Below are positions 13,277-26,652 of a stretch of DNA of 60,962 nt, piece by piece. The notes under the pieces were generated by a model. The model was not told the origin of the DNA. It was given only the letters and a program-made list of their open reading frames with translations, and did no database searches. Position 1 is the first letter of the stretch; the number at the start of each line of letters is the position of its first letter. The DNA comes from Gammaproteobacteria bacterium (lineage in GTDB: Bacteria; Pseudomonadota; Gammaproteobacteria; UBA12402): positions 1 through 60,962 of the forward strand of contig JAHJDF010000092.1 in the NCBI GenBank assembly GCA_018812595.1. The letters are read 5' to 3'. A program made the translations under genes and the position numbers.

Positions 13277-15205
13277 TTAAGACGGTTGTTCAACGGGTTC
13301 CATAAATAGGATACCGATCCCCACCCCTGCATCAACTGTCACCGTCGGATTTCTATCAAAATACTTTTTAGTAGCATTACTTAATGCTTTTCCAACTTCT
13401 CCTAAACCAACAAACAGTTTCTCTTTTGCCGAAAGATTCGGATTATTGGTAGTAGTTGTCCCTGAATTAGTCGTGGTCGTTTGTCCTGAACTTTCTACAG
13501 CATTCGCATAACCTTTAATAAAATTAGCTGCGAACAGCGCTCCATAACGAGAGAGATAATGATGATCCACATCGCTCGCTATTGCTGTATGTGCCGTATC
13601 CGGATTAATGGCGAACGCATTTATTCGTACTGCCGATGGCCATTGCGGCAAAGTCAGTAAATTAAATTTTAAAACCACTCGCTCATGATCTGAGGTAACT
13701 GATAAACCACCTAATAATTTCGCGCCTTTCAACTTGCCAGACACAATGGTCGCCATCACAGGTTGAGGACGATCACTGTTCACACCCGTATCCAGAACAG
13801 CAAACATAATGTCGCCCACTTGCACTACAGGATATTGCGTACTGCCTTGCTTATTTGATCCTTCTTCGCCTGTCACTTTTGAAGCGTTATCAGAGGCGCC
13901 TTTTGTTTTTCCTGTTGATTCATAAACAAAATGCTGTGGACGAGGATTCCAAGCGCTTACCAATTTTTTCGCTTGCGAATTCATTGCACTTTGCAATTCT
14001 TTCAATGTTTTTTGAGTATCAGCCGCCTGAGTAGCTGCTAATTTCGCTTGTGCCTGCATTGCTTGACGTTGCATCTCTGCCTCTTGTTCTCGCAATGCAC
14101 GCTCTTGCTGTTGCTCCTGAGCTTGAATAAAACTTTTAGGAACGTTTTTAGTTGTTACAGAGATATCCCCATGTTCTGCTCTGTAAGCTTTTAATAATTG
14201 CTGTGCGACAATGGGTGATAATTCCCCACCTTCTATTAATCCATTCAACTTTGAAGCGAACTGATTTGCAGGAACATTGTTGTCAGAAAGTTCTTTTAAA
14301 ATATTTGCTGCTGTTTGAGACAGCTTTCCTTGGCTTAATAACTGATGGAGTAACGCATCCGTGGATCCAGTAGGAACAATTTCCTGAGCAGCGGGTTGCT
14401 GTGTTTGTTCAGCAACGATGCCTTGTTCTTTTTTATAAGCAGCAGAAAGTTGATTCACCTGATCTGACGTTAATTGCCCTGCTTGTCCTAAACGATTCAA
14501 GGTATCTGCATAGGTAGAAACGGGGGCTTTTTCATGAATAAGCTTACGAAGCTGGCCAGCCACAACAGAATTAACATTGCCTTGAGCAAGCATCGTATTA
14601 ACTAAATCATTAGAAGAAAGACCGCTTGAAGCGGCTTGTTCTGTTTTATAAGCATCCAACAAAGCTTTTGCTTGTTCAGGAGTGAGCTTGCCCGCATTAA
14701 CAAGTTTATTTAACTCGTCTGCAAATTGATCTACAGAAACGCCAGCATCTCGTAGTTGGTTAATCTGTGAAGCGGTAAGTTGTTGCATCTCTCCCGCTTT
14801 TACATAAGCGTTCAACAACCCCGTAGTGTTGTTTACATAACACTGTTGTACTTTGTCACAAAAATCAGATTGGTTTTTCGTGGTCGTGGAAGATGAAGCA
14901 GAGGTTTCTCCGGTAGCTACAAGTGATGGAATATCGCTGGACCCTTTCTTTATGGCTTGCTCCGAAGCAAGTTTGTCTGACTGTAATAACGCCTTTAGAT
15001 ACTCTGTCGATACGTTTTTTTCGCCGGGTTGTGATTGGATCTGTTGAGGGGGAGTAGCTATTTTTGCTTTCCCTTCTACCGGAACCTTTCCTTGTCTAAA
15101 CATATAGAGACCAACAAAGATAATAATTAAAAAGATTCCTGAAAGGATAATTACCGTATTACGGGTTTTACTACTTTGGAAAAAGCCTGAAAACTTAGCC
15201 ATCAT
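13277..15205 (-). CDS. icmE: Dot/Icm core-complex protein IcmE/DotG (VirB10-like C-terminal domain)
   Basis: 642 aa. It has an N-terminal TM segment, three helical repeats of about 63 aa, a Q/A-rich coiled coil and a TrbI/VirB10-like C-terminus (GDIMFAVLDTGVNSD...). It lies between icmK and icmG, and its start overlaps the icmK stop. Confidence 0.85.
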   Translation of the reverse strand: MMAKFSGFFQSSKTRNTVIILSGIFLIIIFVGLYMFRQGKVPVEGKAKIATPPQQIQSQPGEKNVSTEYLKALLQSDKLASEQAIKKGSSDIPSLVATGETSASSSTTTKNQSDFCDKVQQCYVNNTTGLLNAYVKAGEMQQLTASQINQLRDAGVSVDQFADELNKLVNAGKLTPEQAKALLDAYKTEQAASSGLSSNDLVNTMLAQGNVNSVVAGQLRKLIHEKAPVSTYADTLNRLGQAGQLTSDQVNQLSAAYKKEQGIVAEQTQQPAAQEIVPTGSTDALLHQLLSQGKLSQTAANILKELSDNNVPANQFASKLNGLIEGGELSPIVAQQLLKAYRAEHGDISVTTKNVPKSFIQAQEQQQERALREQEAEMQRQAMQAQAKLAATQAADTQKTLKELQSAMNSQAKKLVSAWNPRPQHFVYESTGKTKGASDNASKVTGEEGSNKQGSTQYPVVQVGDIMFAVLDTGVNSDRPQPVMATIVSGKLKGAKLLGGLSVTSDHERVVLKFNLLTLPQWPSAVRINAFAINPDTAHTAIASDVDHHYLSRYGALFAANFIKGYANAVESSGQTTTTNSGTTTTNNPNLSAKEKLFVGLGEVGKALSNATKKYFDRNPTVTVDAGVGIGILFMEPVEQPS

Positions 15206-16179: not shown

Positions 16180-16803
16180 TTATTGCAGCTCGGCCACATA
16201 AGACGAGATGCCTACTCCATATACATTATCTAATGTCGACACTCTTTCTACCGTTAACAGCACAAGATAATGCTGATCTATTGTTTCACTCTGGCTTTGA
16301 TAAGAAACAACCATCGGTAATTGTAATTTCCAAGTATAGCGTCCATGTATGACATAGCGATTCGTAATAATGGGAGCACCGGAAAGAACTGCGGACACAA
16401 CTATTTTTTTGTTTTGAACAGTTTCTAAATTTTTAGACGTGCTCAACGCTTTCATGAAGCTATCCCAACCAGGTGAAGTGAAATATTTTTCACTGGCCTG
16501 GAATGCGGAGCGGAAATTCACAAAATCATATGAGTTAACCGCAATAACTGCTTCACTCGCCCATTGCAAAACATCCTGAGAACTTAGATTAGGTCTATCC
16601 AAAGGAATTAAAGGAATAATTCGGCCCGAATCCGTTGTTGCAAAATACGTTGGAGAAGGCCGCTCTATAATTAAAACGAACACCGTTACCGCTAATGCCA
16701 CAATCAAAAACATAGCTATTAGTAAAGAAAATAAAACTTTCCTATAACTATCGCGATAAAAATTATTCCGATGTTTTACAATTTCTAACGCATCATACGG
16801 CAT
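16180..16803 (-). CDS. icmL: Dot/Icm inner-membrane protein IcmL/DotI
   Basis: 207 aa from the ATG at 16803, with a GAGGA RBS upstream. It has a single N-terminal TM segment plus a periplasmic domain, and sits upstream of icmK. Confidence 0.8.
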   Translation of the reverse strand: MPYDALEIVKHRNNFYRDSYRKVLFSLLIAMFLIVALAVTVFVLIIERPSPTYFATTDSGRIIPLIPLDRPNLSSQDVLQWASEAVIAVNSYDFVNFRSAFQASEKYFTSPGWDSFMKALSTSKNLETVQNKKIVVSAVLSGAPIITNRYVIHGRYTWKLQLPMVVSYQSQSETIDQHYLVLLTVERVSTLDNVYGVGISSYVAELQ

Positions 16804-17021
16804 GAATAATTCCTCAAAAAACACAACACATGATCGCACAAAAACTTACATTTACTGTGCCACTATAAGAGATCGACTATATATGAGTAACCTGAGTTGC
16901 TCAAGGCTGATTTGAAATGCTAAATATCAATAAAACCCCTAAAAAAACAGAGGGTAAGCGCTTCTTGGAAAAATTAAAAAAACCGAATTATTTGCCTATT
17001 AGAATAAAGAAAATCATGCAA

Positions 17022-19388
17022 CTACAGATCTTCAAATAAATTACTTAAATCATCATTTCCTTTCATGGTTTCAAGAGAAGCTGACAGCTCACCAATCCAT
17101 TTCACAATCGCATCAACATCCGGCGGCTCTTGAATAGCAGGGGGATAATCTGTCACTGTTTGCATGTCTTTTAATAACTCTTTAGCAAGATTAGACGCCT
17201 GTTTTTCTGTTTTTCCGCACAAACGTTCAGAAAATTCTATCTTTTGGCCACACAAAGACTTCTTTAATAGAATTTCAGAAAACGCCGGCAGTTCGTCAGC
17301 AGAAACAATTTGTTTTGTCACATCCGTTAAATTCACTTTAGTAAATACATTCAATCGGCCTTCCGCCCGAGCCTCTTCTTCAACCTCTGCCTCTAAAGAC
17401 AAGTTTGCATCTTTGTTATGGTAAGCCAATAAAGTCGCAACCCCCCTCTCAATAAAAGTTTCCGCTTTATCGTTTTTAAGAGTGTCTGCAATAAACGAAA
17501 GATTTGTATTCGCTTCCGGTTCTTTATAAACAAAATCTTTAGCTCTCATTAACTGCGTGAAAGTATCAATGCGCCGTGCAAAAGCTAATAACTGTTTATC
17601 AGAAGGGCTCTGAACCCGCATAAAAATGTTTAAACGCATTTTCGAAACAGGTTTTGGATTTGCATAGAAAGTACGAGCCCGAACAATAGTAGATCTAAAG
17701 AATATGTGTGCATCGCCTTGCACCTGATCTTTTAAATCCAATAAGCTAATTCGTTGTCTTTTTTCCATAGAAGCGCTTAAAGCGTCGCCATAAAAATTCA
17801 ATACACCATTAGGATTTATACGGAATGAATCTACTTTCGCAACATAGGCTTCTGATGCTGTTTTATTGAAGAACTCCCAAGTTTCCATCGGGTCTTCCAA
17901 TTTCATTGCGATCTTAATATTCGTATTAGCGCCAATAGATGCAGCCTCTTCCTTCGAAACTTTTTGGAAAGCCGGAAGATCTTGGCCAGCAAAAACAACA
18001 GAAAAACCGAGAGAACGTGCTTGAGCAGGGACAACAGCAAAGCCTTGAACAGCGTAGTAACCGTACTCGTCTAAAATACATAAAAAGGGATTCGGTGCAT
18101 TAGTCGGCTTTCTTAAAATAATATCCTTATATGCACCTTCAACCTCTTCACCAAGACCTGAAGCCATCATCACTCGTAACGAAGCAATAATGATTTTTCC
18201 TAAATTCGATAATTCAACTGGCGATTTTTCTAGCGCGGGCAACAGCACCACTAAGATACGTCTATTCAACACAACATCTTTTAAATCCACTTCCGCTAAA
18301 TTCGTCCTCAAGATATGGCCATACGTATCCGCTAACGACGTAAAAACACGGGTTAACTGCATCGTAATAAAGCCATGTTGTTCTAACACTTGAGAAACTT
18401 GCTTGCCCTTACGCGAGCGATCATATCCAGGCAGGTTAATGACGTAGTTGTATAAAGGTTCCAAAATCACAGGATCTGCATCGGCTAAACTGACAGGCTC
18501 ATCATTATCGCGAGGAAACATCTTATCCAAGACCATGCTTTCTAAACGCTCTAAGAGAAAATAATTTCGAATAGTGTTTGCATCTAACAAAATAATGCCT
18601 TGATCTCGCGCATACACTAAAGTCTTCATCAACGCTTCTACAAAAGAAATCGCACGCCCCTTCCACATATCACCGTCAGGCGTATGACTTGCGGAATCCA
18701 TCATGCTCACAACCAACTGAGATAACATGCTGGATGAACCACGAGCAAATGGATTCATTGTGTTTGATAAACGATGCGGCTGCGGGCCAACAATATCTCT
18801 AGCACCGGTCATGTAGTTAATAACCAGCACGTCATCCTCTCTACCTACGGCACGAGCCATTGAAAAAATCTTGGAAAATAGTGTGTTATCGCCTTTTCCA
18901 TCCACATAGATAAACCCACTGCCTTGAATCAAAGCATTGAATGCTAAGGATATTAAAAATTCTGTTTTTCCACTTCCGGTTGAACCAAAGATCAAAGTAT
19001 GTGTTCGCATGTCTTCATTGCTGAACCACAACTCCTCATTAGTATCCAGCTCATTGCCATAAAAATAGATGCCTCTTGCCTGCCGTGGCTGACTCGTTCC
19101 GGGAGCCAAATCATTGTAATCAGGAAGATGAGAAGTTTCGGGCAATCGAAAAGGAAGTTTAGATTTGCGATTCATACAATACCAAAAAATGATAATACAA
19201 ATCACAAACAGGAAATCAGAAAACGCCATAAAAACAGGCATAAAACTCGCGATCGCTGCGGCCAATATCACGAGTGCTCCGTTGCGGGGTTCCTTATAAA
19301 AATCCGGGATACGTTCCCACATCGTGCGCACATCGCGCAACTGCTTCTTACCTGGCTGTTCCTCTGCTTTTAAAAGACCTCGAACCAT
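17022..19388 (-). CDS. icmO: Dot/Icm type IV coupling protein IcmO/DotL
   Basis: 788 aa. It has two N-terminal TM segments, a Walker A motif (GSTGSGKTE) and a Walker B-like motif (LCILDEYG). Size and position after icmP match DotL. Confidence 0.9.
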   Translation of the reverse strand: MVRGLLKAEEQPGKKQLRDVRTMWERIPDFYKEPRNGALVILAAAIASFMPVFMAFSDFLFVICIIIFWYCMNRKSKLPFRLPETSHLPDYNDLAPGTSQPRQARGIYFYGNELDTNEELWFSNEDMRTHTLIFGSTGSGKTEFLISLAFNALIQGSGFIYVDGKGDNTLFSKIFSMARAVGREDDVLVINYMTGARDIVGPQPHRLSNTMNPFARGSSSMLSQLVVSMMDSASHTPDGDMWKGRAISFVEALMKTLVYARDQGIILLDANTIRNYFLLERLESMVLDKMFPRDNDEPVSLADADPVILEPLYNYVINLPGYDRSRKGKQVSQVLEQHGFITMQLTRVFTSLADTYGHILRTNLAEVDLKDVVLNRRILVVLLPALEKSPVELSNLGKIIIASLRVMMASGLGEEVEGAYKDIILRKPTNAPNPFLCILDEYGYYAVQGFAVVPAQARSLGFSVVFAGQDLPAFQKVSKEEAASIGANTNIKIAMKLEDPMETWEFFNKTASEAYVAKVDSFRINPNGVLNFYGDALSASMEKRQRISLLDLKDQVQGDAHIFFRSTIVRARTFYANPKPVSKMRLNIFMRVQSPSDKQLLAFARRIDTFTQLMRAKDFVYKEPEANTNLSFIADTLKNDKAETFIERGVATLLAYHNKDANLSLEAEVEEEARAEGRLNVFTKVNLTDVTKQIVSADELPAFSEILLKKSLCGQKIEFSERLCGKTEKQASNLAKELLKDMQTVTDYPPAIQEPPDVDAIVKWIGELSASLETMKGNDDLSNLFEDL

Positions 19389-19398
19389 TTTTTATACT

Positions 19399-20520
19399 CT
19401 AATCAGGGGTGTCTGGATTATAAATGATCTCTTTAACGGCTGCTTCCAACCCATTAACGGCTTGATCAACCATCGGGGTTCTAATACGTCTGCCTAATTT
19501 TTTTTCAGCCAACCAATGCGCAAAAGGCCCAGCAACTTCTACAGCAACCGTTTGACGGCCCACCGCATTCAACATAAACCATAAACGACGATCTACTGGT
19601 TTTAGCCACAAAAATTCCGAGCTCGACAACACACCGTCTAATCGAGCCAATTTCAATAAAGAAGCCATCACTGTTAAACAGTACGCATGCTTATCCGTCA
19701 CTTCTTTTACAAAAGGCAGGTTCTCGTATTTTTTAATTCGCTCTTCAGCACCAGAAAAATCCAAACTGCCTGACCTAGATGATTCCGCTATTGATTGTAA
19801 TAAATCCTTTGCTTCTTGCGTGTTATGCGCCGCTTTAGTCACAAAAACTGCAAACAGTGCTTTGGTATACGCATCTAAATCATGAACATTCGTCCATAAC
19901 TTTCCTAACTGCATAGAAAAAACTCTTGATGCCCGATCTCGAATCACAATTGCCTTCGCTTGATTTTGACCCGCTAAAGCAGTTTCCTTAGAAGCCGCTA
20001 CTGTTTTCAACAGATGGTGTTTTTTTGCAAACCGCATAGGAGCCATTGCCATAGCCCATGGGCCCACCTCAATGTCTTCTGAGACCAAATCAACATCCCG
20101 CACAGGAGCCGTTTCAGGCCATAGTTCTAAAATAGAAGCCCGTAATGACTCCATCGTGAGTTTTCTCTTATATCGGCTAGCGCTGCTTCTGAAATACAAC
20201 AAAATTGCAAAAATAATTAATACAAATGCGATGAAATATCGCAGATAAAATGCGACTTGATACGCCACAACAGAGACAGTATGAAAAGGAACAGCTTTTG
20301 GATTTAAAGCAGCATCGGCGATAATTTGTTTGGTTTGAGTGAACGCTTGAGGAACAAAACCACCAATAAAGAATTGCACAAACTCAATTTCATAGCGCTT
20401 GATAAAAAAATAAAAAGAAACAATCTGTGCCCGAGCAACAAACCAAATAATGAACCCGACAACAAATAGTCCAATAATGATCCACACGGGCTCCATTTCA
20501 GTTGTACGTGCTTCAGGCAT
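19399..20520 (-). CDS. icmP: Dot/Icm coupling-complex protein IcmP/DotM
   Basis: 373 aa with N-terminal TM segments, immediately upstream of icmO. Confidence 0.8.
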   Translation of the reverse strand: MPEARTTEMEPVWIIIGLFVVGFIIWFVARAQIVSFYFFIKRYEIEFVQFFIGGFVPQAFTQTKQIIADAALNPKAVPFHTVSVVAYQVAFYLRYFIAFVLIIFAILLYFRSSASRYKRKLTMESLRASILELWPETAPVRDVDLVSEDIEVGPWAMAMAPMRFAKKHHLLKTVAASKETALAGQNQAKAIVIRDRASRVFSMQLGKLWTNVHDLDAYTKALFAVFVTKAAHNTQEAKDLLQSIAESSRSGSLDFSGAEERIKKYENLPFVKEVTDKHAYCLTVMASLLKLARLDGVLSSSEFLWLKPVDRRLWFMLNAVGRQTVAVEVAGPFAHWLAEKKLGRRIRTPMVDQAVNGLEAAVKEIIYNPDTPD

Positions 20521-20692: not shown

Positions 20693-21283
20693 ATGAAAAA
20701 ACAACCGGCATCACAAAACACAATCACAAAAATTTGCGCTTCTTGTAAGGTTCGAAAACCTTTGTCCTCTTTTTTACAAGAGTCCGTTTCTTACATGAAA
20801 ACTTACAGCAATATCTGTAATGACTGCCGCAATAAAAGTGCTTCTTCGTGGGTCAGATATTCTCGCGATACAACACATTCATCCGACGAAAAAGAAAAGC
20901 AATCTTCTTTTGGTTTGGACGCTTTCTATCTAAACGAGCAAGTTCCAAAAGATTATTCTTCTCATGCAAACTCTTATAAAAGTATGCATGAAACCAATTT
21001 TGAATCCCTATTTAAAAAGTCCGTTGCCACTTGGGCAAAAATCATTGCAAAGCAAGAAGACGATGACGACGATGAAGGCGGTGGCGGCACAAGAAAAGTG
21101 AAGAAAAACAGTATAGATTACTACGTATGGCGCTACATGCTTGATGCACAAGTAAATTATTTTATGCACCGAGGTGAGCAAAAAATGCAACACCGCGCGA
21201 ATCTAAACAAACAAAGCAAACTCAAGCAAAACACAAAACAAAAGAAAGCAAACTCTATGGCTCGCAAAGCTTCAAAAATTTAA
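20693..21283 (+). CDS. Hypothetical protein with a CxxC...CxxC zinc-ribbon-like N-terminus, a poly-Asp/Gly tract and a Lys-rich tail
   Basis: 196-aa ORF on the strand opposite to the icm operons, between icmP and icmQ. Motifs are CASC-x22-CNDC, EDDDDDEGGGG and a C-terminal KQSKLKQNTKQKKANSMARKASKI. I recognise no family. Confidence 0.5.
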   Translation: MKKQPASQNTITKICASCKVRKPLSSFLQESVSYMKTYSNICNDCRNKSASSWVRYSRDTTHSSDEKEKQSSFGLDAFYLNEQVPKDYSSHANSYKSMHETNFESLFKKSVATWAKIIAKQEDDDDDEGGGGTRKVKKNSIDYYVWRYMLDAQVNYFMHRGEQKMQHRANLNKQSKLKQNTKQKKANSMARKASKI

Positions 21284-21351: not shown

Positions 21352-21999
21352 TTATTGCGGCGTTAAGATACCTTGCTCGGTAATAGTGTAGAACTTGCCG
21401 TTACTATAAAACCCTTCGATATTTTCCTTTTTCAAAGCGCCTTGACGCAATCTCAACAATGGATAACCGTGCTGATCATGCAATGTCGCTGTTTCAGAAG
21501 TTTCCATTAAATCATCAGGATCCACCGCGATTTCGATATACCCATGCTGCGTCTGAATCGGTTTTGCTTTGATGAGGCTCTCTATCTGTTCCCGACTCGC
21601 ATAAATAGGCCGATTTACACTGTGTTCAAATAACGCGCTTGGCCGTAATAATTTCTGCCATGTTTGTAGCTGCGCCCCCTGGGCATTAAACAAATAGACA
21701 TAAACAAACGTTTTTTTGTTTTCAGATGCCTCTGCAGGCCGGGCGTCACTAGACATCTGCAGAACTTCAATTTCTTGAAGATACTGATCAAACATTGCAT
21801 GCAATTGAGAGACAACCACATTAAATCGACTGCCTATTTCACATTCAGCACGCAATAGGGTTTCCTGCTCTAAAATATCTTTTAGGATTTCAGTAACGGT
21901 TAAATACGATTCAGGCGTTTCACTTAAATGTTTGATCAGTTCAGTACTCTCAACAATCGATTGACTTAACTTTTCTAGATACCGTTCTTCATCAATCAT
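21352..21999 (-). CDS. icmQ: Dot/Icm protein IcmQ
   Basis: 215 aa. The C-terminal block VNRPIYASREQIESLIKAKP...YIEIAV resembles my recollection of Legionella IcmQ (…RPIYADEQDIISLIKSK…). It lies downstream of icmS. Confidence 0.78.
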   Translation of the reverse strand: MIDEERYLEKLSQSIVESTELIKHLSETPESYLTVTEILKDILEQETLLRAECEIGSRFNVVVSQLHAMFDQYLQEIEVLQMSSDARPAEASENKKTFVYVYLFNAQGAQLQTWQKLLRPSALFEHSVNRPIYASREQIESLIKAKPIQTQHGYIEIAVDPDDLMETSETATLHDQHGYPLLRLRQGALKKENIEGFYSNGKFYTITEQGILTPQ

Positions 22000-22028
22000 G
22001 TGGGAGTTTCCTGCTGTAACATGTGTTC

Positions 22029-22373
22029 TTAGTCATACATCAGCTCATCTAACACCACCATATCTTTGGACGTCGATGAATGAATCAATTCATTCAAAAC
22101 ATCGATAATACAAAGATACCTAACTGTACTTGGAGTCACATCATCAAAAACCACTTTTACACCAAGCATGGAGCCTTCTGATTCATCAAAAGAAACCCCA
22201 ATACCATAGCCTAAACAAAGCGCGCACAACTGATCGGCTCTACGGGCAATGGCTGGCAACAAACCAGTTGGAGAAAAAATTTGTTCTTTTGAAATTTCTT
22301 TATTACGAAGTTGAAATTTCACACCGAAAACAGATGCGATAGAGATAAGTTTTTTTGAAATATCATCGTTCAT
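22029..22373 (-). CDS. icmS: Dot/Icm adaptor/chaperone IcmS
   Basis: 114 aa, the same length as Legionella IcmS. The conserved block is TGLLPAIARRADQLCALCLGYG. Confidence 0.9.
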   Translation of the reverse strand: MNDDISKKLISIASVFGVKFQLRNKEISKEQIFSPTGLLPAIARRADQLCALCLGYGIGVSFDESEGSMLGVKVVFDDVTPSTVRYLCIIDVLNELIHSSTSKDMVVLDELMYD

Positions 22374-22382
22374 AAAGTTTAT

Positions 22383-22634
22383 TTACTCCCACCAAGGGTG
22401 AGCCATTTTTCTAGGCCCTGTTATAAAACCACGCGTTAAACGCAAAAAGACGGGCACAGTAAAACCATATCGCGACAAAAAACTAAAAAACGCGGTTGCA
22501 GCAATAGCAACGGCAAAAGTCCAAAGGCGAATATGCAATAAAAATAAAACCATGGGAAAAACGGCCCATCCGTCTATAAAAAAGAATTGGGGCCGACGAG
22601 CGGAATCCCGCCAATAAGCATTTATTTCACCCAT
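22383..22634 (-). CDS. icmT: Dot/Icm inner-membrane protein IcmT
   Basis: 83 aa. It has the WRDSARRPQFFFID...LFLLHIRLWTF...RYGFTVPVFLR pattern typical of IcmT/TraK-like proteins. Confidence 0.9.
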   Translation of the reverse strand: MGEINAYWRDSARRPQFFFIDGWAVFPMVLFLLHIRLWTFAVAIAATAFFSFLSRYGFTVPVFLRLTRGFITGPRKMAHPWWE

Positions 22635-25282: not shown

Positions 25283-26611
25283 ATGTTAAGAAAACAAAAA
25301 ATACAGATAACCTTTTTAATTACTTTTTTTCTAGTTCTCCCATTTCCTCTCATCATTAATATTTTTTACGCCAAACAATTGTGTTCATTGAGGCTGCTGT
25401 CTTATCTGTTCCTCATTCCTTGCACGCTGTTACTGTTCACCAAACCTGGCAAGGCAATCATCGGGGAAGAAAAACAATCAAAGCAGCATATGGCAATTTG
25501 GCTATTAAAAATTCTCACCATTGAACTTTGTGCCTTTTCTCTATTTGCCATCCAAAATCAATTTTTGTTTACCTCGTTGAACACAGCCCTCAGCGCCCAC
25601 CACATGTCGTGGCAACAATTTATCTCTCCAAGCACTTTACTCTACAGCTGCCTCGCGTGGGCAATCGTCTGTTTCCTAGGTATCGTCATAGCTCAACACA
25701 GCCACGGAAGGAAAACCTATACCCCTTTTACTTTCTTCCTTCCCAGAAAAACACATCGATTCATACAAAACATTAGCCGCACCATCGTGGAATATCTCAT
25801 CAAATTTGCCACAACAGTTTTTCTCACATTAAGCAGCATCTTTTTGCTCTTTCAGCTCGCTTACATCATTCATCCATCTGAACTTTATTTCGTTCCTATA
25901 AACGGAATGATTCTGGCAACAGCACTGGCAATGTTTCCCCGATTAACGAAGATCGATGAACTCATACAAACTATCGAGGGGAAAAACATACGGCAGGGAT
26001 TTCATTATCTAATCATCGGCGTTACTTTTTTTGCTTTTCTATTGCTGTGCGTTCTGGCTACTTTTTTATTGTCAAAAAGCGAATTATCTCTGATGGATTT
26101 TTCTTTTCCGCGTTTTTTTGTAAACCATGTCGACTTAAAAACATGGATTCCTTTATGGCACTGGGGATGGTGGTTATTAAGCGCCCCTTTATTTGGCTCT
26201 ATACTAATCGCTGTTTCTCATGGACGTTCTGTACGAACCTTTATTCTCGCTGTGCTTACTCTCCCTTTGATGTTGTTTATCTACACACTCTTGGCACACC
26301 CAACATTCTTAAACCATGCATTCGCCATACACATAGCTCAAGCGCTAAGCGCCCTTTTTCTTCTTGTTCTATTCGTAAAAAAAACAAGTACAACAATGCT
26401 ATGGACTGGATTCATTCCTTTACATCCCATCAAAAAAGAACGTCGACTACACCCCATGCAAATGTGGCTTCTTTGGTCTTCTCTGACTGGATTATTGCTA
26501 TTAACTAGCTTTATCGGCATTCAATTATTGGTCATCGGATTAGTGCTAGTTTTACTTGTGATCTATCTATTGCAATTAAGCACGTCACTCAAAGCAATGT
26601 TTGTGAAATAA
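25283..26611 (+). CDS. Divergent, short BCCT-family-like transporter
   Basis: 442 aa with about 10-12 TM segments. The block LWHWGWWLLSAPLFGSILIAVSHGRSVRTFILAVL resembles the BCCT signature ([28 protein letters not shown]). Confidence 0.45.
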   Translation: MLRKQKIQITFLITFFLVLPFPLIINIFYAKQLCSLRLLSYLFLIPCTLLLFTKPGKAIIGEEKQSKQHMAIWLLKILTIELCAFSLFAIQNQFLFTSLNTALSAHHMSWQQFISPSTLLYSCLAWAIVCFLGIVIAQHSHGRKTYTPFTFFLPRKTHRFIQNISRTIVEYLIKFATTVFLTLSSIFLLFQLAYIIHPSELYFVPINGMILATALAMFPRLTKIDELIQTIEGKNIRQGFHYLIIGVTFFAFLLLCVLATFLLSKSELSLMDFSFPRFFVNHVDLKTWIPLWHWGWWLLSAPLFGSILIAVSHGRSVRTFILAVLTLPLMLFIYTLLAHPTFLNHAFAIHIAQALSALFLLVLFVKKTSTTMLWTGFIPLHPIKKERRLHPMQMWLLWSSLTGLLLLTSFIGIQLLVIGLVLVLLVIYLLQLSTSLKAMFVK

Positions 26612-26628: not shown

Positions 26629-26652
26629 CTGGAAAGGGAATCTACTTTCCAG
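26629..26652. terminator. Hairpin between the convergent BCCT-like gene and dotA (possible bidirectional terminator)
   Basis: CTGGAAAG-ggaatcta-CTTTCCAG. It overlaps the dotA stop codon. There is no clear U-tract. Confidence 0.35.

What the first reader, a model, noticed from the sequence alone, without database searches (positions are those of the whole stretch)
21352..22373. No icmR/FIR gene in the conserved slot between icmS and icmQ, and IcmQ has an extended N-terminus
In Legionella species the slot immediately upstream of icmQ always holds icmR or a non-homologous functional equivalent. These are the FIR genes; coxigA in Coxiella is one. The product chaperones the N-terminal domain of IcmQ.

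Here the icmS stop (22029) and the icmQ start (21999) are only 29 nt apart, and no ORF lies between them on either strand.

The IcmQ ORF is 215 aa, versus about 190 aa as I recall for L. pneumophila. The extra length lies N-terminal to the conserved …RPIYASREQIESLIKAK… domain. That is exactly the region that binds IcmR.

There are two possibilities. This IcmQ may be chaperone-independent, with a self-complemented helical bundle. Or the partner may be encoded elsewhere, for example by the divergent 196-aa ORF next door.
Basis: partly seen in the sequence, partly recalled or inferred. Interest (0 to 1): 0.7.

Follow-up and report, generated by a model that had tools for sequence, protein, structure and literature searches.

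The report
IcmQ with built-in chaperone helix
In this bacterium's Dot/Icm secretion gene cluster the small partner gene normally found upstream of icmQ is missing, and IcmQ carries an extra first helix that looks like half of that partner fused onto it, a natural variant that could help show what the partner is for.

Summary
icmS (22029-22373) and icmQ (21352-21999) are 29 nt apart with no ORF between them. The same layout occurs in 11 independently assembled contigs.

IcmQ is 215 aa, against 191 aa in L. pneumophila. The extra about 25 residues are a conserved N-terminal helix (Y7 and L8 invariant) shared by a whole clade of 213-230-aa IcmQs.

That helix is significantly similar to the second helix of a conserved two-helix small protein. 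This protein is encoded immediately upstream of icmQ in Aquicella and many uncultured relatives, and in several lineages it is fused in frame to IcmQ.

AlphaFold predicts three N-terminal helices for the window protein and four for a fused form. L. pneumophila IcmR and IcmQ build four helices from two chains.

The extension alone does not explain the empty slot. Most relatives with the same long IcmQ still carry a poorly conserved 38-136-aa ORF there. One has a fourth helix fused. Only this species and one other subclade have nothing.

I read this as a half-internalised chaperone plus loss of the slot gene. A partner encoded elsewhere is not excluded. It is a new variant of a known kind, of moderate interest.

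The parts
21352..21999 (-). icmQ, 215 aa, of the 'long' architecture class
   Evidence: PF09475 at 73.9 bits. TIGR02527 at 72.5 bits, below its 99.1 cut-off. The AF2 model has pLDDT 92, and its top Foldseek hit is 4eyy_Q at E 2.6e-12.
21919..21999 (-). N-terminal extension, residues 1-27 (predicted helix 2-23). It has no counterpart in L. pneumophila IcmQ and resembles helix 2 of the upstream small-protein family.
   Evidence: The offset to 4eyy_Q is 27 residues. Y7 and L8 are invariant in 30 long-clade sequences. hhalign of residues 1-27 against the small-ORF family scores 22.8 (P 5.8e-5). None of 300 column shuffles reached it (max 15.6), reversed controls reached at most 12.8, and helix 1 alone scored 7.8. 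phmmer aligns window residues 4-11 onward to residues 32-54 of extended forms.
21748..21915 (-). Helices 29-53 and 60-84. These are the counterpart of the two N-terminal helices of L. pneumophila IcmQ (residues 1-57) that bind IcmR.
   Evidence: AF2 secondary structure with pLDDT above 90. Alignment to 4eyy_Q. The role of residues 1-57 is taken from PMC6761968.
21352..21711 (-). C-terminal alpha/beta domain (residues 97-215 plus the stop), with the conserved VYVYLFNAQG and HSVNRPIY motifs
   Evidence: Invariant columns N105, G108, W114, S127, N129, R130, P131 and Y133. Structural match to 4eyy_Q.
22000..22028 (.). 29-nt icmS-icmQ spacer. It holds no slot gene, has AGGA at 22009-22012, and contains an 8-codon mini-ORF whose TGA overlaps the icmQ ATG.
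   Evidence: No promoter-like or terminator-like site in it. Identical in six independent assemblies.
22029..22373 (-). icmS, 114 aa
   Evidence: PF12608 at 66.9 bits. 60-65% identity to IcmS of related loci.
22383..22634 (-). icmT, 83 aa
   Evidence: tblastn gives 57-62% identity to IcmT of related loci, which carry PF28014.
20693..21283 (+). 196-aa ORF convergent with icmQ. It has an N-terminal Cys4 motif (C-x2-C-x3-KPL-x2-FL...C-x2-CR) followed by an acidic/Gly run. It belongs to a family linked to icmQ in at least 35 loci.
   Evidence: tblastn hits next to icmQ in most loci of both clades. No Pfam or NCBIfam family.
19399..20520 (-). icmP/dotM
   Evidence: PF23127 DotM_C at 204.8 bits.
17022..19388 (-). 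icmO/dotL
   Evidence: 62% identity to the DotL homologue of L005. PF12696 in the corresponding genes of relatives.

Best explanation
This organism has a Legionella-like icmT-icmS-icmQ-...-icmP-icmO cluster. Its IcmQ belongs to a clade that has taken part of its partner protein into its own chain.

**The comparison cases**
- In L. pneumophila, two helices of IcmR and the two N-terminal helices of IcmQ pair up. This keeps the IcmQ N-domain from aggregating or inserting into membranes.
- In the sister ('short IcmQ') clade, which includes Aquicella, the gene just upstream of icmQ encodes a conserved two-helix protein. In several lineages that gene is fused to icmQ, giving a single-chain four-helix N-domain.

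**The window's clade**
- Only the second of those helices is part of IcmQ (residues 1-27), giving a three-helix N-domain.
- Most members still have a fast-evolving small ORF in the slot that may supply a fourth helix.
- One member has a fourth helix fused.
- This species and one other subclade have lost the slot gene. icmQ now follows icmS after 29 nt in one operon.

**Most likely consequence:** here IcmQ folds and works without a separately encoded slot chaperone. The built-in helix covers the face that IcmR covers in Legionella.

**Shown:** the empty slot; the conserved extension; its similarity to helix 2 of the small-protein family; the natural fusions; the predicted three-helix and four-helix N-domains.

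**Inferred:** that the small-protein family does the job of IcmR; that helix 1 packs as the IcmR-type helix does; and that no partner in trans is needed.
For: **The slot**
- It is empty and the start codon is secure.
- The layout is reproduced in independent assemblies.

**Three architecture classes among 123 homologues**
- Short forms, about 80.
- Long forms, about 30.
- Fused forms with the GLQNAAP motif, about 8.
- An exhaustive search of 1.84 billion cluster representatives gives 420 IcmQ representatives. Of the best 150, about 31 are collinear from residue 1. Nine are longer forms in which the window's residues 4-11 align to residues 32-54.

**The small-protein family**
- Short-form loci all carry a homologous 64-100-aa ORF directly upstream.
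- The family has 579 members, including Aquicella siphonis AQUSIP_03990, which sits next to its IcmQ.

**Extension versus that family**
- hhalign of the long N-region against the fused N-region is collinear from residue 5 (E 6e-12).
- The extension alone scores 22.8. Shuffles reach at most 15.6, reversed controls at most 12.8, and helix 1 gives 7.8.

**Structure predictions**
- Window IcmQ: helices 2-23, 29-53 and 60-84, each 10-residue block over residues 1-70 at pLDDT 90 or more and the last block (71-80) at 85.
- Fused P0029: helices 4-32, 43-66, 71-95 and 102-124.
- Both match 4eyy_Q best.
- Weak structural analogues are three-helix MIT domains for the window model and four-helix bundles (Csp, ferritin) for the fused model.

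**Relatives**
- P0004 is the closest relative by identity (46-47%). It has a genuine extra helix fused ahead of the YL helix, and its ATG overlaps the icmS stop.
- The other slot-less subclade has diverged to 60-82% IcmQ identity, so the state is stable.
Against: - About 15 long-clade lineages keep an ORF of 38-136 aa in the slot together with the same extension. The extension may therefore not be enough by itself.
- A three-helix domain that normally takes a fourth helix could still need a partner here. Only 61 kb of the genome could be searched.
- Relatives' slot ORFs are too variable for homology search to find a relocated copy.
- No coordinates were available, so the packing of helix 1 against helices 2 and 3 rests on pLDDT and weak fold analogues.
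- Equivalence of the small-protein family to IcmR/FIR rests on position, size, helices and fusions. It shows no sequence similarity to PDB IcmR and has no experimental support.
Confidence: 0.5

Rival explanations
1. The partner still exists but is encoded elsewhere in the genome, outside the slot and perhaps outside this window. The three-helix IcmQ N-domain is completed in trans, as it presumably is in slot-bearing relatives.
For: Most long-clade relatives have a slot ORF. One has a fourth helix fused. Both suggest a fourth helix is the norm. FIR-type genes evolve too fast to be found by similarity (PMC6761968).
Against: Nothing in the 61-kb window resembles the two-helix family or any relative's slot ORF (best E 0.08). 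In Legionella and in all relatives seen here, the partner is always directly upstream of icmQ. A second subclade has lacked it through 60-82% IcmQ divergence.
Confidence: 0.28
2. The conserved Cys4 protein next door (ORF196, 20693-21283) is the IcmQ partner in this organism.
For: Its family is adjacent to icmQ in at least 35 loci across both clades. In L033 it lies directly upstream of icmQ on the same strand, where a FIR gene would be, with no other slot ORF.
Against: It is present whether or not a slot ORF or two-helix gene is present, so it is not a substitute. It shows no similarity to the two-helix family. It is a zinc-ribbon-like, basic, low-complexity protein with no known family. In the window it is convergent with icmQ, not co-transcribed.
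Confidence: 0.08
3. The whole long clade is already chaperone-independent. On this reading the slot 'ORFs' of relatives are decaying remnants or chance ORFs in a spacer, and the window simply shows the tidy end state.
For: Slot ORFs share no detectable similarity across lineages. The one comparable pair has dN/dS 0.82, against 0.27 for icmQ. Sizes range from 38 to 136 aa. The slot has been emptied at least twice.
Against: The ORFs are always on the icmQ strand. Gene finders call them in independent assemblies. P0004 keeps such a segment as an in-frame helix. IcmR in Legionella is also the fastest-evolving Dot/Icm protein, so fast evolution is not evidence of decay.
Confidence: 0.14

Closest known systems
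L. pneumophila IcmR-IcmQ complex (PDB 4EYY; N-domain complexes of Raychaudhury et al. 2009)
   Same: Same IcmQ family and fold (Foldseek E 2.6e-12). Same position in an icmT-S-(R)-Q-P-O cluster. The helical N-domain is the partner-binding part.
   Different: There is no icmR-position gene. IcmQ has a third N-terminal helix of about 25 residues that Lp IcmQ lacks. TIGR02527 scores below its equivalog cut-off.
FIR genes of other Legionella species (Feldman et al. 2005; Gomez-Valero et al. 2019) and CoxigA of Coxiella
   Same: Relatives of the window carry small, fast-evolving, non-homologous ORFs in exactly this slot, as Legionella does (PMC6761968).
   Different: Legionella is reported to have one or two such genes in every species analysed. 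Here there is none. CoxigA could not be compared because no sequence or paper was available.
Aquicella-type two-helix small protein (AQUSIP_03990-like, unnamed family of 579 proteins) and its in-frame fusions to IcmQ
   Same: The window's residues 1-27 match its second helix in the same register (YL to QYL) and in the same order relative to the IcmQ helices.
   Different: The first helix with the GLQNAAP motif is absent from the window in all six frames. The family is conserved in sequence, unlike Legionella FIRs.

Membership tests
IcmQ (PF09475 / TIGR02527) | Sequence match above the curated threshold | tested here: met
   Pfam gives 73.9 bits against a gathering score of 25. The stricter NCBIfam equivalog cut-off is not reached (72.5 against 99.1).
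IcmQ (PF09475 / TIGR02527) | Two-domain fold: helical N-domain plus alpha/beta C-domain, as in 4EYY chain Q | tested here: met
   AF2 pLDDT 92. Foldseek hit 4eyy_Q at E 2.6e-12, probability 1.00.
IcmQ (PF09475 / TIGR02527) | Encoded inside a Dot/Icm cluster next to icmS/icmT and icmP/icmO | tested here: met
IcmQ (PF09475 / TIGR02527) | NAD+ binding by the C-domain | not testable with these tools
   The conserved HSVNRPIY and LFNxxG motifs are present. Binding itself needs biochemistry.
IcmR/FIR partner gene | Small ORF immediately upstream of icmQ on the same strand | tested here: not met
   The spacer is 29 nt and holds no ORF of 20 aa or more. It is identical in six assemblies.
IcmR/FIR partner gene | Two helical regions with hydrophobic faces that pair with the IcmQ N-domain | tested here: inconclusive
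   One such helix is present, but as part of IcmQ itself (residues 2-23). It matches helix 2 of the upstream small-protein family.
IcmR/FIR partner gene | Binds IcmQ and prevents its aggregation or membrane insertion | not testable with these tools
   Needs co-expression, pull-down and liposome assays.
Aquicella-type two-helix small protein family (A5) | Helix 1 with the ...AKQA..LA.GLQNAAP motif | tested here: not met
   The family HMM finds nothing in the six-frame translation of the window (best E 0.82).
Aquicella-type two-helix small protein family (A5) | Helix 2 with the S[VI]QYL...L motif, placed directly before the IcmQ helices | tested here: met
   Profile-profile score 22.8, P 5.8e-5. 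Controls reach at most 15.6. Collinear in full-length alignments.

The most novel reading that the evidence does not exclude
Across uncultured Legionellales/Coxiellales relatives, the two-gene IcmR/FIR-IcmQ module appears in a natural series. The states are: split (a two-helix gene plus a two-helix IcmQ N-domain); fully fused (a four-helix IcmQ N-domain); half-fused (three helices plus a variable slot ORF); and, in this species, half-fused with no partner at all.

If the last state is truly partner-free, FIR proteins are structural complements of the IcmQ N-domain rather than regulators. This IcmQ would then be a minimal single-chain form in which to test what the IcmR-IcmQ pairing does.
Probability: 0.4. 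Interest if true: 0.65.

Novelty: new variant of a known kind. Interest (0 to 1): 0.55.

Why it matters
The role of IcmR-IcmQ in the Dot/Icm machine, and the reason IcmR-position genes evolve so fast, remain open. The 2019 comparative study says the reason for the extreme divergence is not known.

This finding would give three things that sequence work on Legionella alone could not provide:
- A conserved partner family outside Legionella.
- Natural in-frame fusions of that partner with IcmQ.
- An IcmQ that carries half of the partner and has none in the slot.

Each yields a direct test:
- Truncate residues 1-27 and ask whether the protein becomes partner-dependent.
- Compare split and fused forms.
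- Use the single-chain forms for structural work.

The finding does not change what a Dot/Icm system is. It shows how one of its least understood pairs can be rearranged.

Tried and rejected
1. **Search for the two-helix family in the window.** An HMM of the family was run against all six frames of the window. There was no hit, not even to the IcmQ N-terminus at that sensitivity. The link appeared only with profile-profile comparison.

2. **Idea that long-clade slot ORFs are helix 1 of that family.** Real sequences score no better than shuffles. Not supported.

3. **Mutual similarity of slot ORFs.** None beyond near-identical lineages.

4. **A basic A[KR]xF[LF] helix motif seen by eye in five slot ORFs.** A profile built from them only weakly picks up the others: P0004 N-term 1/100, L034 4/100, the rest 9-43/100. 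Left open.

5. **A relocated slot ORF in the window.** tblastn with 13 slot ORFs gave chance-level hits only.

6. **Charge compensation in slot-less lineages.** No trend. The window N-domain has net charge -12, while the other slot-less subclade ranges from +1 to +7 (the script stopped part-way).

7. **Promoter and terminator scan of the spacer.** Nothing found, and counts for the region are at or near background.

8. **Pfam and NCBIfam on the small ORFs and ORF196.** No family.

9. **The small-ORF profile against PDB sequences.** It hits only designed coiled coils, not IcmR.

10. **Literature.** The two IcmR-IcmQ structure papers are not held. 'coxigA' appears in no held paper. Details of the four-helix bundle therefore rest on my own knowledge and on PMC6761968.

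11. **Assembly artefact.** Rejected.

Full report
**1. The observation**

On the minus strand the window carries these genes:
- icmT (22383-22634)
- icmS (22029-22373; PF12608)
- icmQ (21352-21999; PF09475, residues 61-207)
- a 196-aa ORF on the plus strand (20693-21283)
- icmP/dotM (19399-20520)
- icmO/dotL (17022-19388)

dotD, dotC and dotB run the other way from 22723. The rest of the cluster lies on either side: dotI, dotH, dotG and the large ORF I take to be dotO on one side, and icmW with the ORFs I take to be dotA and icmV on the other. Pfam confirmed dotI, dotH, dotG (TrbI domain) and icmW. The dotO, dotA and icmV assignments rest on position and size, because those ORFs had no Pfam hit.

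The icmS-icmQ spacer is 29 nt (22000-22028). It contains an AGGA nine bases before the ATG. It holds no ORF of 20 aa or more on either strand.

The icmQ start is the first start codon after an in-frame stop. The residues that follow it (M1, E4, Y7, L8) are invariant or nearly so in 30 homologues, so the long N-terminus is not a start-codon artefact.

L. pneumophila IcmQ in PDB 4EYY is 191 aa. It aligns with a 27-residue offset.

The same icmS-29 nt-icmQ-ORF196 arrangement is present in 11 contigs. The six that were read come from independent assemblies (three NCBI MAGs, one ENA, two Logan) and are 99.8-100% identical. One correction: the 196-aa ORF is convergent with icmQ.

**2. IcmQ comes in three architectures**

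Homologue searches returned 123 proteins. They fall into three classes:

| Class | Length | Conserved core | Approx. number |
|---|---|---|---|
| Short | 187-204 aa | GDKFRFIR | about 80 |
| Long | 213-230 aa | GVRFNV; N-terminus M-x-D-E-K-x-Y-L | about 30, including the window |
| Extended | 253-271 aa | as short forms | about 8 |

No homologue is more than 47% identical to the window protein.

An exhaustive scan of 1.84 billion cluster representatives found 420 IcmQ representatives. Of the best 150:
- About 31 are collinear with the window protein from residue 1.
- Nine are longer proteins in which the window's residues 4-11 onward align to their residues 32-54.

**3. What lies upstream of icmQ in relatives**

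I fetched 23 genome loci and 32 metagenome loci, plus others by exact-protein look-up.

*Short-form loci.* Every one has a homologous ORF of 64-100 aa ending a few bases before icmQ. Its consensus is ...LLEIAKQAxxLAxGLQNAAP...S[VI]QYLLxxxxxL....
- The family has 579 members at E <= 0.01, all unnamed.
- One member is AQUSIP_03990, next to IcmQ (AQUSIP_04000) in Aquicella siphonis.
- It has no Pfam or NCBIfam model.
- It has no sequence similarity to PDB IcmR.

*Extended IcmQs.* These are this ORF fused in frame to IcmQ (P0023, P0029, P0031, P0048, P0049, P0053, P0101, P0120, and loci L015, L016, L023, L043, L049, L054).

**4. The window's extension matches helix 2 of that small protein**

- Profile-profile alignment of the long-clade N-region against the fused N-region is collinear from window residue 5. 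ERYLEKL pairs with VQYLLEV (E 6e-12).
- Residues 1-27 alone, compared with the small-protein family, align in the same register with score 22.8 (P 5.8e-5).
- Controls:
  - 0 of 300 column shuffles reach that score (mean 7.9, max 15.6).
  - Thirty reversed and rotated versions, which keep helical periodicity, reach at most 12.8.
  - The comparison with helix 1 alone gives 7.8.

I take the similarity as real, with about 0.8 confidence.

**5. Structure predictions**

*Window IcmQ* (77-sequence alignment, mean pLDDT 92):
- Helices 2-23, 29-53 and 60-84, with each 10-residue block over residues 1-70 at pLDDT 90 or more and the last block (71-80) at 85.
- A disordered linker at 86-92.
- An alpha/beta domain after that.
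- The best PDB match is 4eyy_Q (E 2.6e-12).
- Weak analogues of the N-part are three-helix MIT domains.

*Fused P0029* (pLDDT 90.6):
- Four N-terminal helices: 4-32, 43-66, 71-95 and 102-124.
- It again matches 4eyy_Q best.
- The next matches are four-helix bundles such as Csp and ferritins.

By alignment, window helix 1 corresponds to helix 2 of the fused form. Window helices 2 and 3 correspond to the two IcmQ helices that bind IcmR in Legionella (residues 1-57, per PMC6761968).

No coordinates were returned. The packing of helix 1 is therefore inferred, not seen.

**6. The extension does not by itself explain the empty slot**

Long-clade loci usually keep 0.3-0.55 kb between icmS and icmQ, with a same-strand ORF in it:

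| Locus or protein | Slot ORF |
|---|---|
| L003 | 100 aa |
| L005 / L037 / L041 | 63 aa |
| L024 / L026 | 75 aa |
| L028 | 83 aa |
| L032 | 102 aa |
| L034 | 81 aa |
| L035 | 136 aa |
| L036 | 119 aa |
| L055 | 72 aa |
| L060 | 38 aa |
| L061 | 107 aa |
| P0012 | 74 aa |
| P0016 | 54 aa |
| P0019 | 84 aa |
| L038 | about 48 aa, overlapping |

These ORFs show no detectable similarity to each other, to helix 1 of the two-helix family, or to anything in the window. The one comparable pair has dN/dS 0.82, against 0.27 for icmQ. This is the behaviour described for Legionella FIR genes, but it also fits decay.

P0004 has the highest identity to the window protein (46-47%). It has a genuine extra 34-residue helix ahead of the YL helix. 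Its ATG overlaps the icmS stop, and there is no alternative start.

Slot-less lineages are:
- the window species;
- the 'MMADEKFYL' subclade (L001, L002, L027, L030, L031; spacers 2-91 nt), whose IcmQs are 60-82% identical to each other and 37-43% identical to the window's;
- L033, which also has no small ORF upstream of icmQ, but there the upstream neighbour is the ORF196-like gene rather than icmS.

A neighbour-joining tree places the window next to slot-bearing L003, and places the other subclade next to slot-bearing L024. That suggests two independent losses, but the tree has no support values.

**7. Interpretation**

The most economical reading is that the partner has been taken into IcmQ in steps. 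The states seen are:
- split: a two-helix gene plus a two-helix IcmQ N-domain;
- fully fused: four helices;
- half-fused: three helices plus a variable slot ORF, or plus a fused fourth helix;
- half-fused with nothing in the slot, as in the window.

icmT-icmS-icmQ looks like one operon. There is no promoter-like or terminator-like site in the spacer.

My preferred view is that this IcmQ works without a slot chaperone (0.5). The rivals are:
- a partner encoded elsewhere (0.28), which the data cannot exclude, because only 61 kb was available and such genes cannot be found by homology;
- the whole long clade being already independent, with slot ORFs as remnants (0.14);
- the neighbouring Cys4 protein as partner (0.08).

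**8. The 196-aa ORF**

Its family has these features:
- C-x2-C-x3-KPL-x2-FL...Y...C-x2-CR at the N-terminus;
- an acidic/Gly run;
- a low-complexity middle;
- in the short clade, a conserved ...WLG... motif and a basic C-terminal tail.

It lies next to icmQ in at least 35 loci of both clades. In L033 it is directly upstream of icmQ on the same strand.

The linkage suggests a Dot/Icm-related role. But the gene is present with and without a slot gene, so it is not a replacement for one. It has no known family.

**9. Comparison with what is known, and verdict**

The literature held here describes IcmR or non-homologous FIR genes in the icmR position in every Legionella species analysed (58 species / 80 strains in that study), and functional equivalents in Coxiella and Rickettsiella. 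None of the papers I read from the held library mentions a conserved partner family, fusions with IcmQ, or an empty slot, and no search was aimed specifically at such reports. The library is incomplete, so absence of a report is weak evidence.

The protein is a member of the IcmQ family. Pfam and fold criteria are met, while the NCBIfam equivalog cut-off is not.

The locus is a new variant of a known kind. Interest is moderate (0.55). It does not overturn anything, but it gives concrete handles on an unresolved pair of Dot/Icm proteins.

Noticed in passing
window 20693-21283 (+); also L004 5546-6361, L024 4665-5414, L033 2174-2857, L059: A family of 196-404-aa proteins is linked to icmQ in at least 35 loci. 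They have an N-terminal Cys4 motif (C-x2-C-x3-KPL-x2-FL...C-x2-CR) and an acidic/Gly run. Many also have a conserved ...WLG... motif and a basic C-terminal tail. The gene is usually convergent with icmQ and once lies directly upstream. It has no Pfam or NCBIfam family.
   Followed up: partly
window 22000-22026 (- strand): An 8-codon mini-ORF (ATG TTA CAG CAG GAA ACT CCC ACA TGA) fills the icmS-icmQ spacer, and its stop overlaps the icmQ start (ATGA). It is identical in six assemblies of the same species. It may be chance or a coupling device.
   Followed up: no
window 16839-17022: dotI/icmL (16180-16839) follows dotL/icmO (17022-19388) after 182 nt. No icmN/dotK or icmM/dotJ lies between them, unlike the L. 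pneumophila order icmO-N-M-L.
   Followed up: no
window 25283-26611 (+): A BCCT-type transporter-like gene sits just after dotB, between dotD-C-B and the large minus-strand ORF 26642-29038 that I take to be dotA. A weak BCCT hit sits beside dotB in a relative too.
   Followed up: no
loci L004-L022, L039-L054, L059 4592-4813: The two-helix small protein upstream of short-form icmQ is a large sequence-conserved family: 579 proteins, all annotated as hypothetical. This contrasts with the non-homologous FIR genes of Legionella. In these genomes icmQ is not next to icmT/icmS but follows mlaA-like or trmL-like genes.
   Followed up: partly
window 13277-15205 (-): The DotG/IcmE homologue is only 642 aa, about 400 aa shorter than the 1048 aa reported for L. 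pneumophila DotG (gene length 3,147 nt). It has a TrbI domain at the C-terminus and a short SHOCT-like match at residues 167-190.
   Followed up: no
window 21352-21999 (-), residues 1-86: The IcmQ N-domain of this species is strongly acidic (net charge about -12). The other slot-less subclade is neutral to basic (+1 to +7). This is an odd property for a domain thought to insert into membranes in Legionella.
   Followed up: partly
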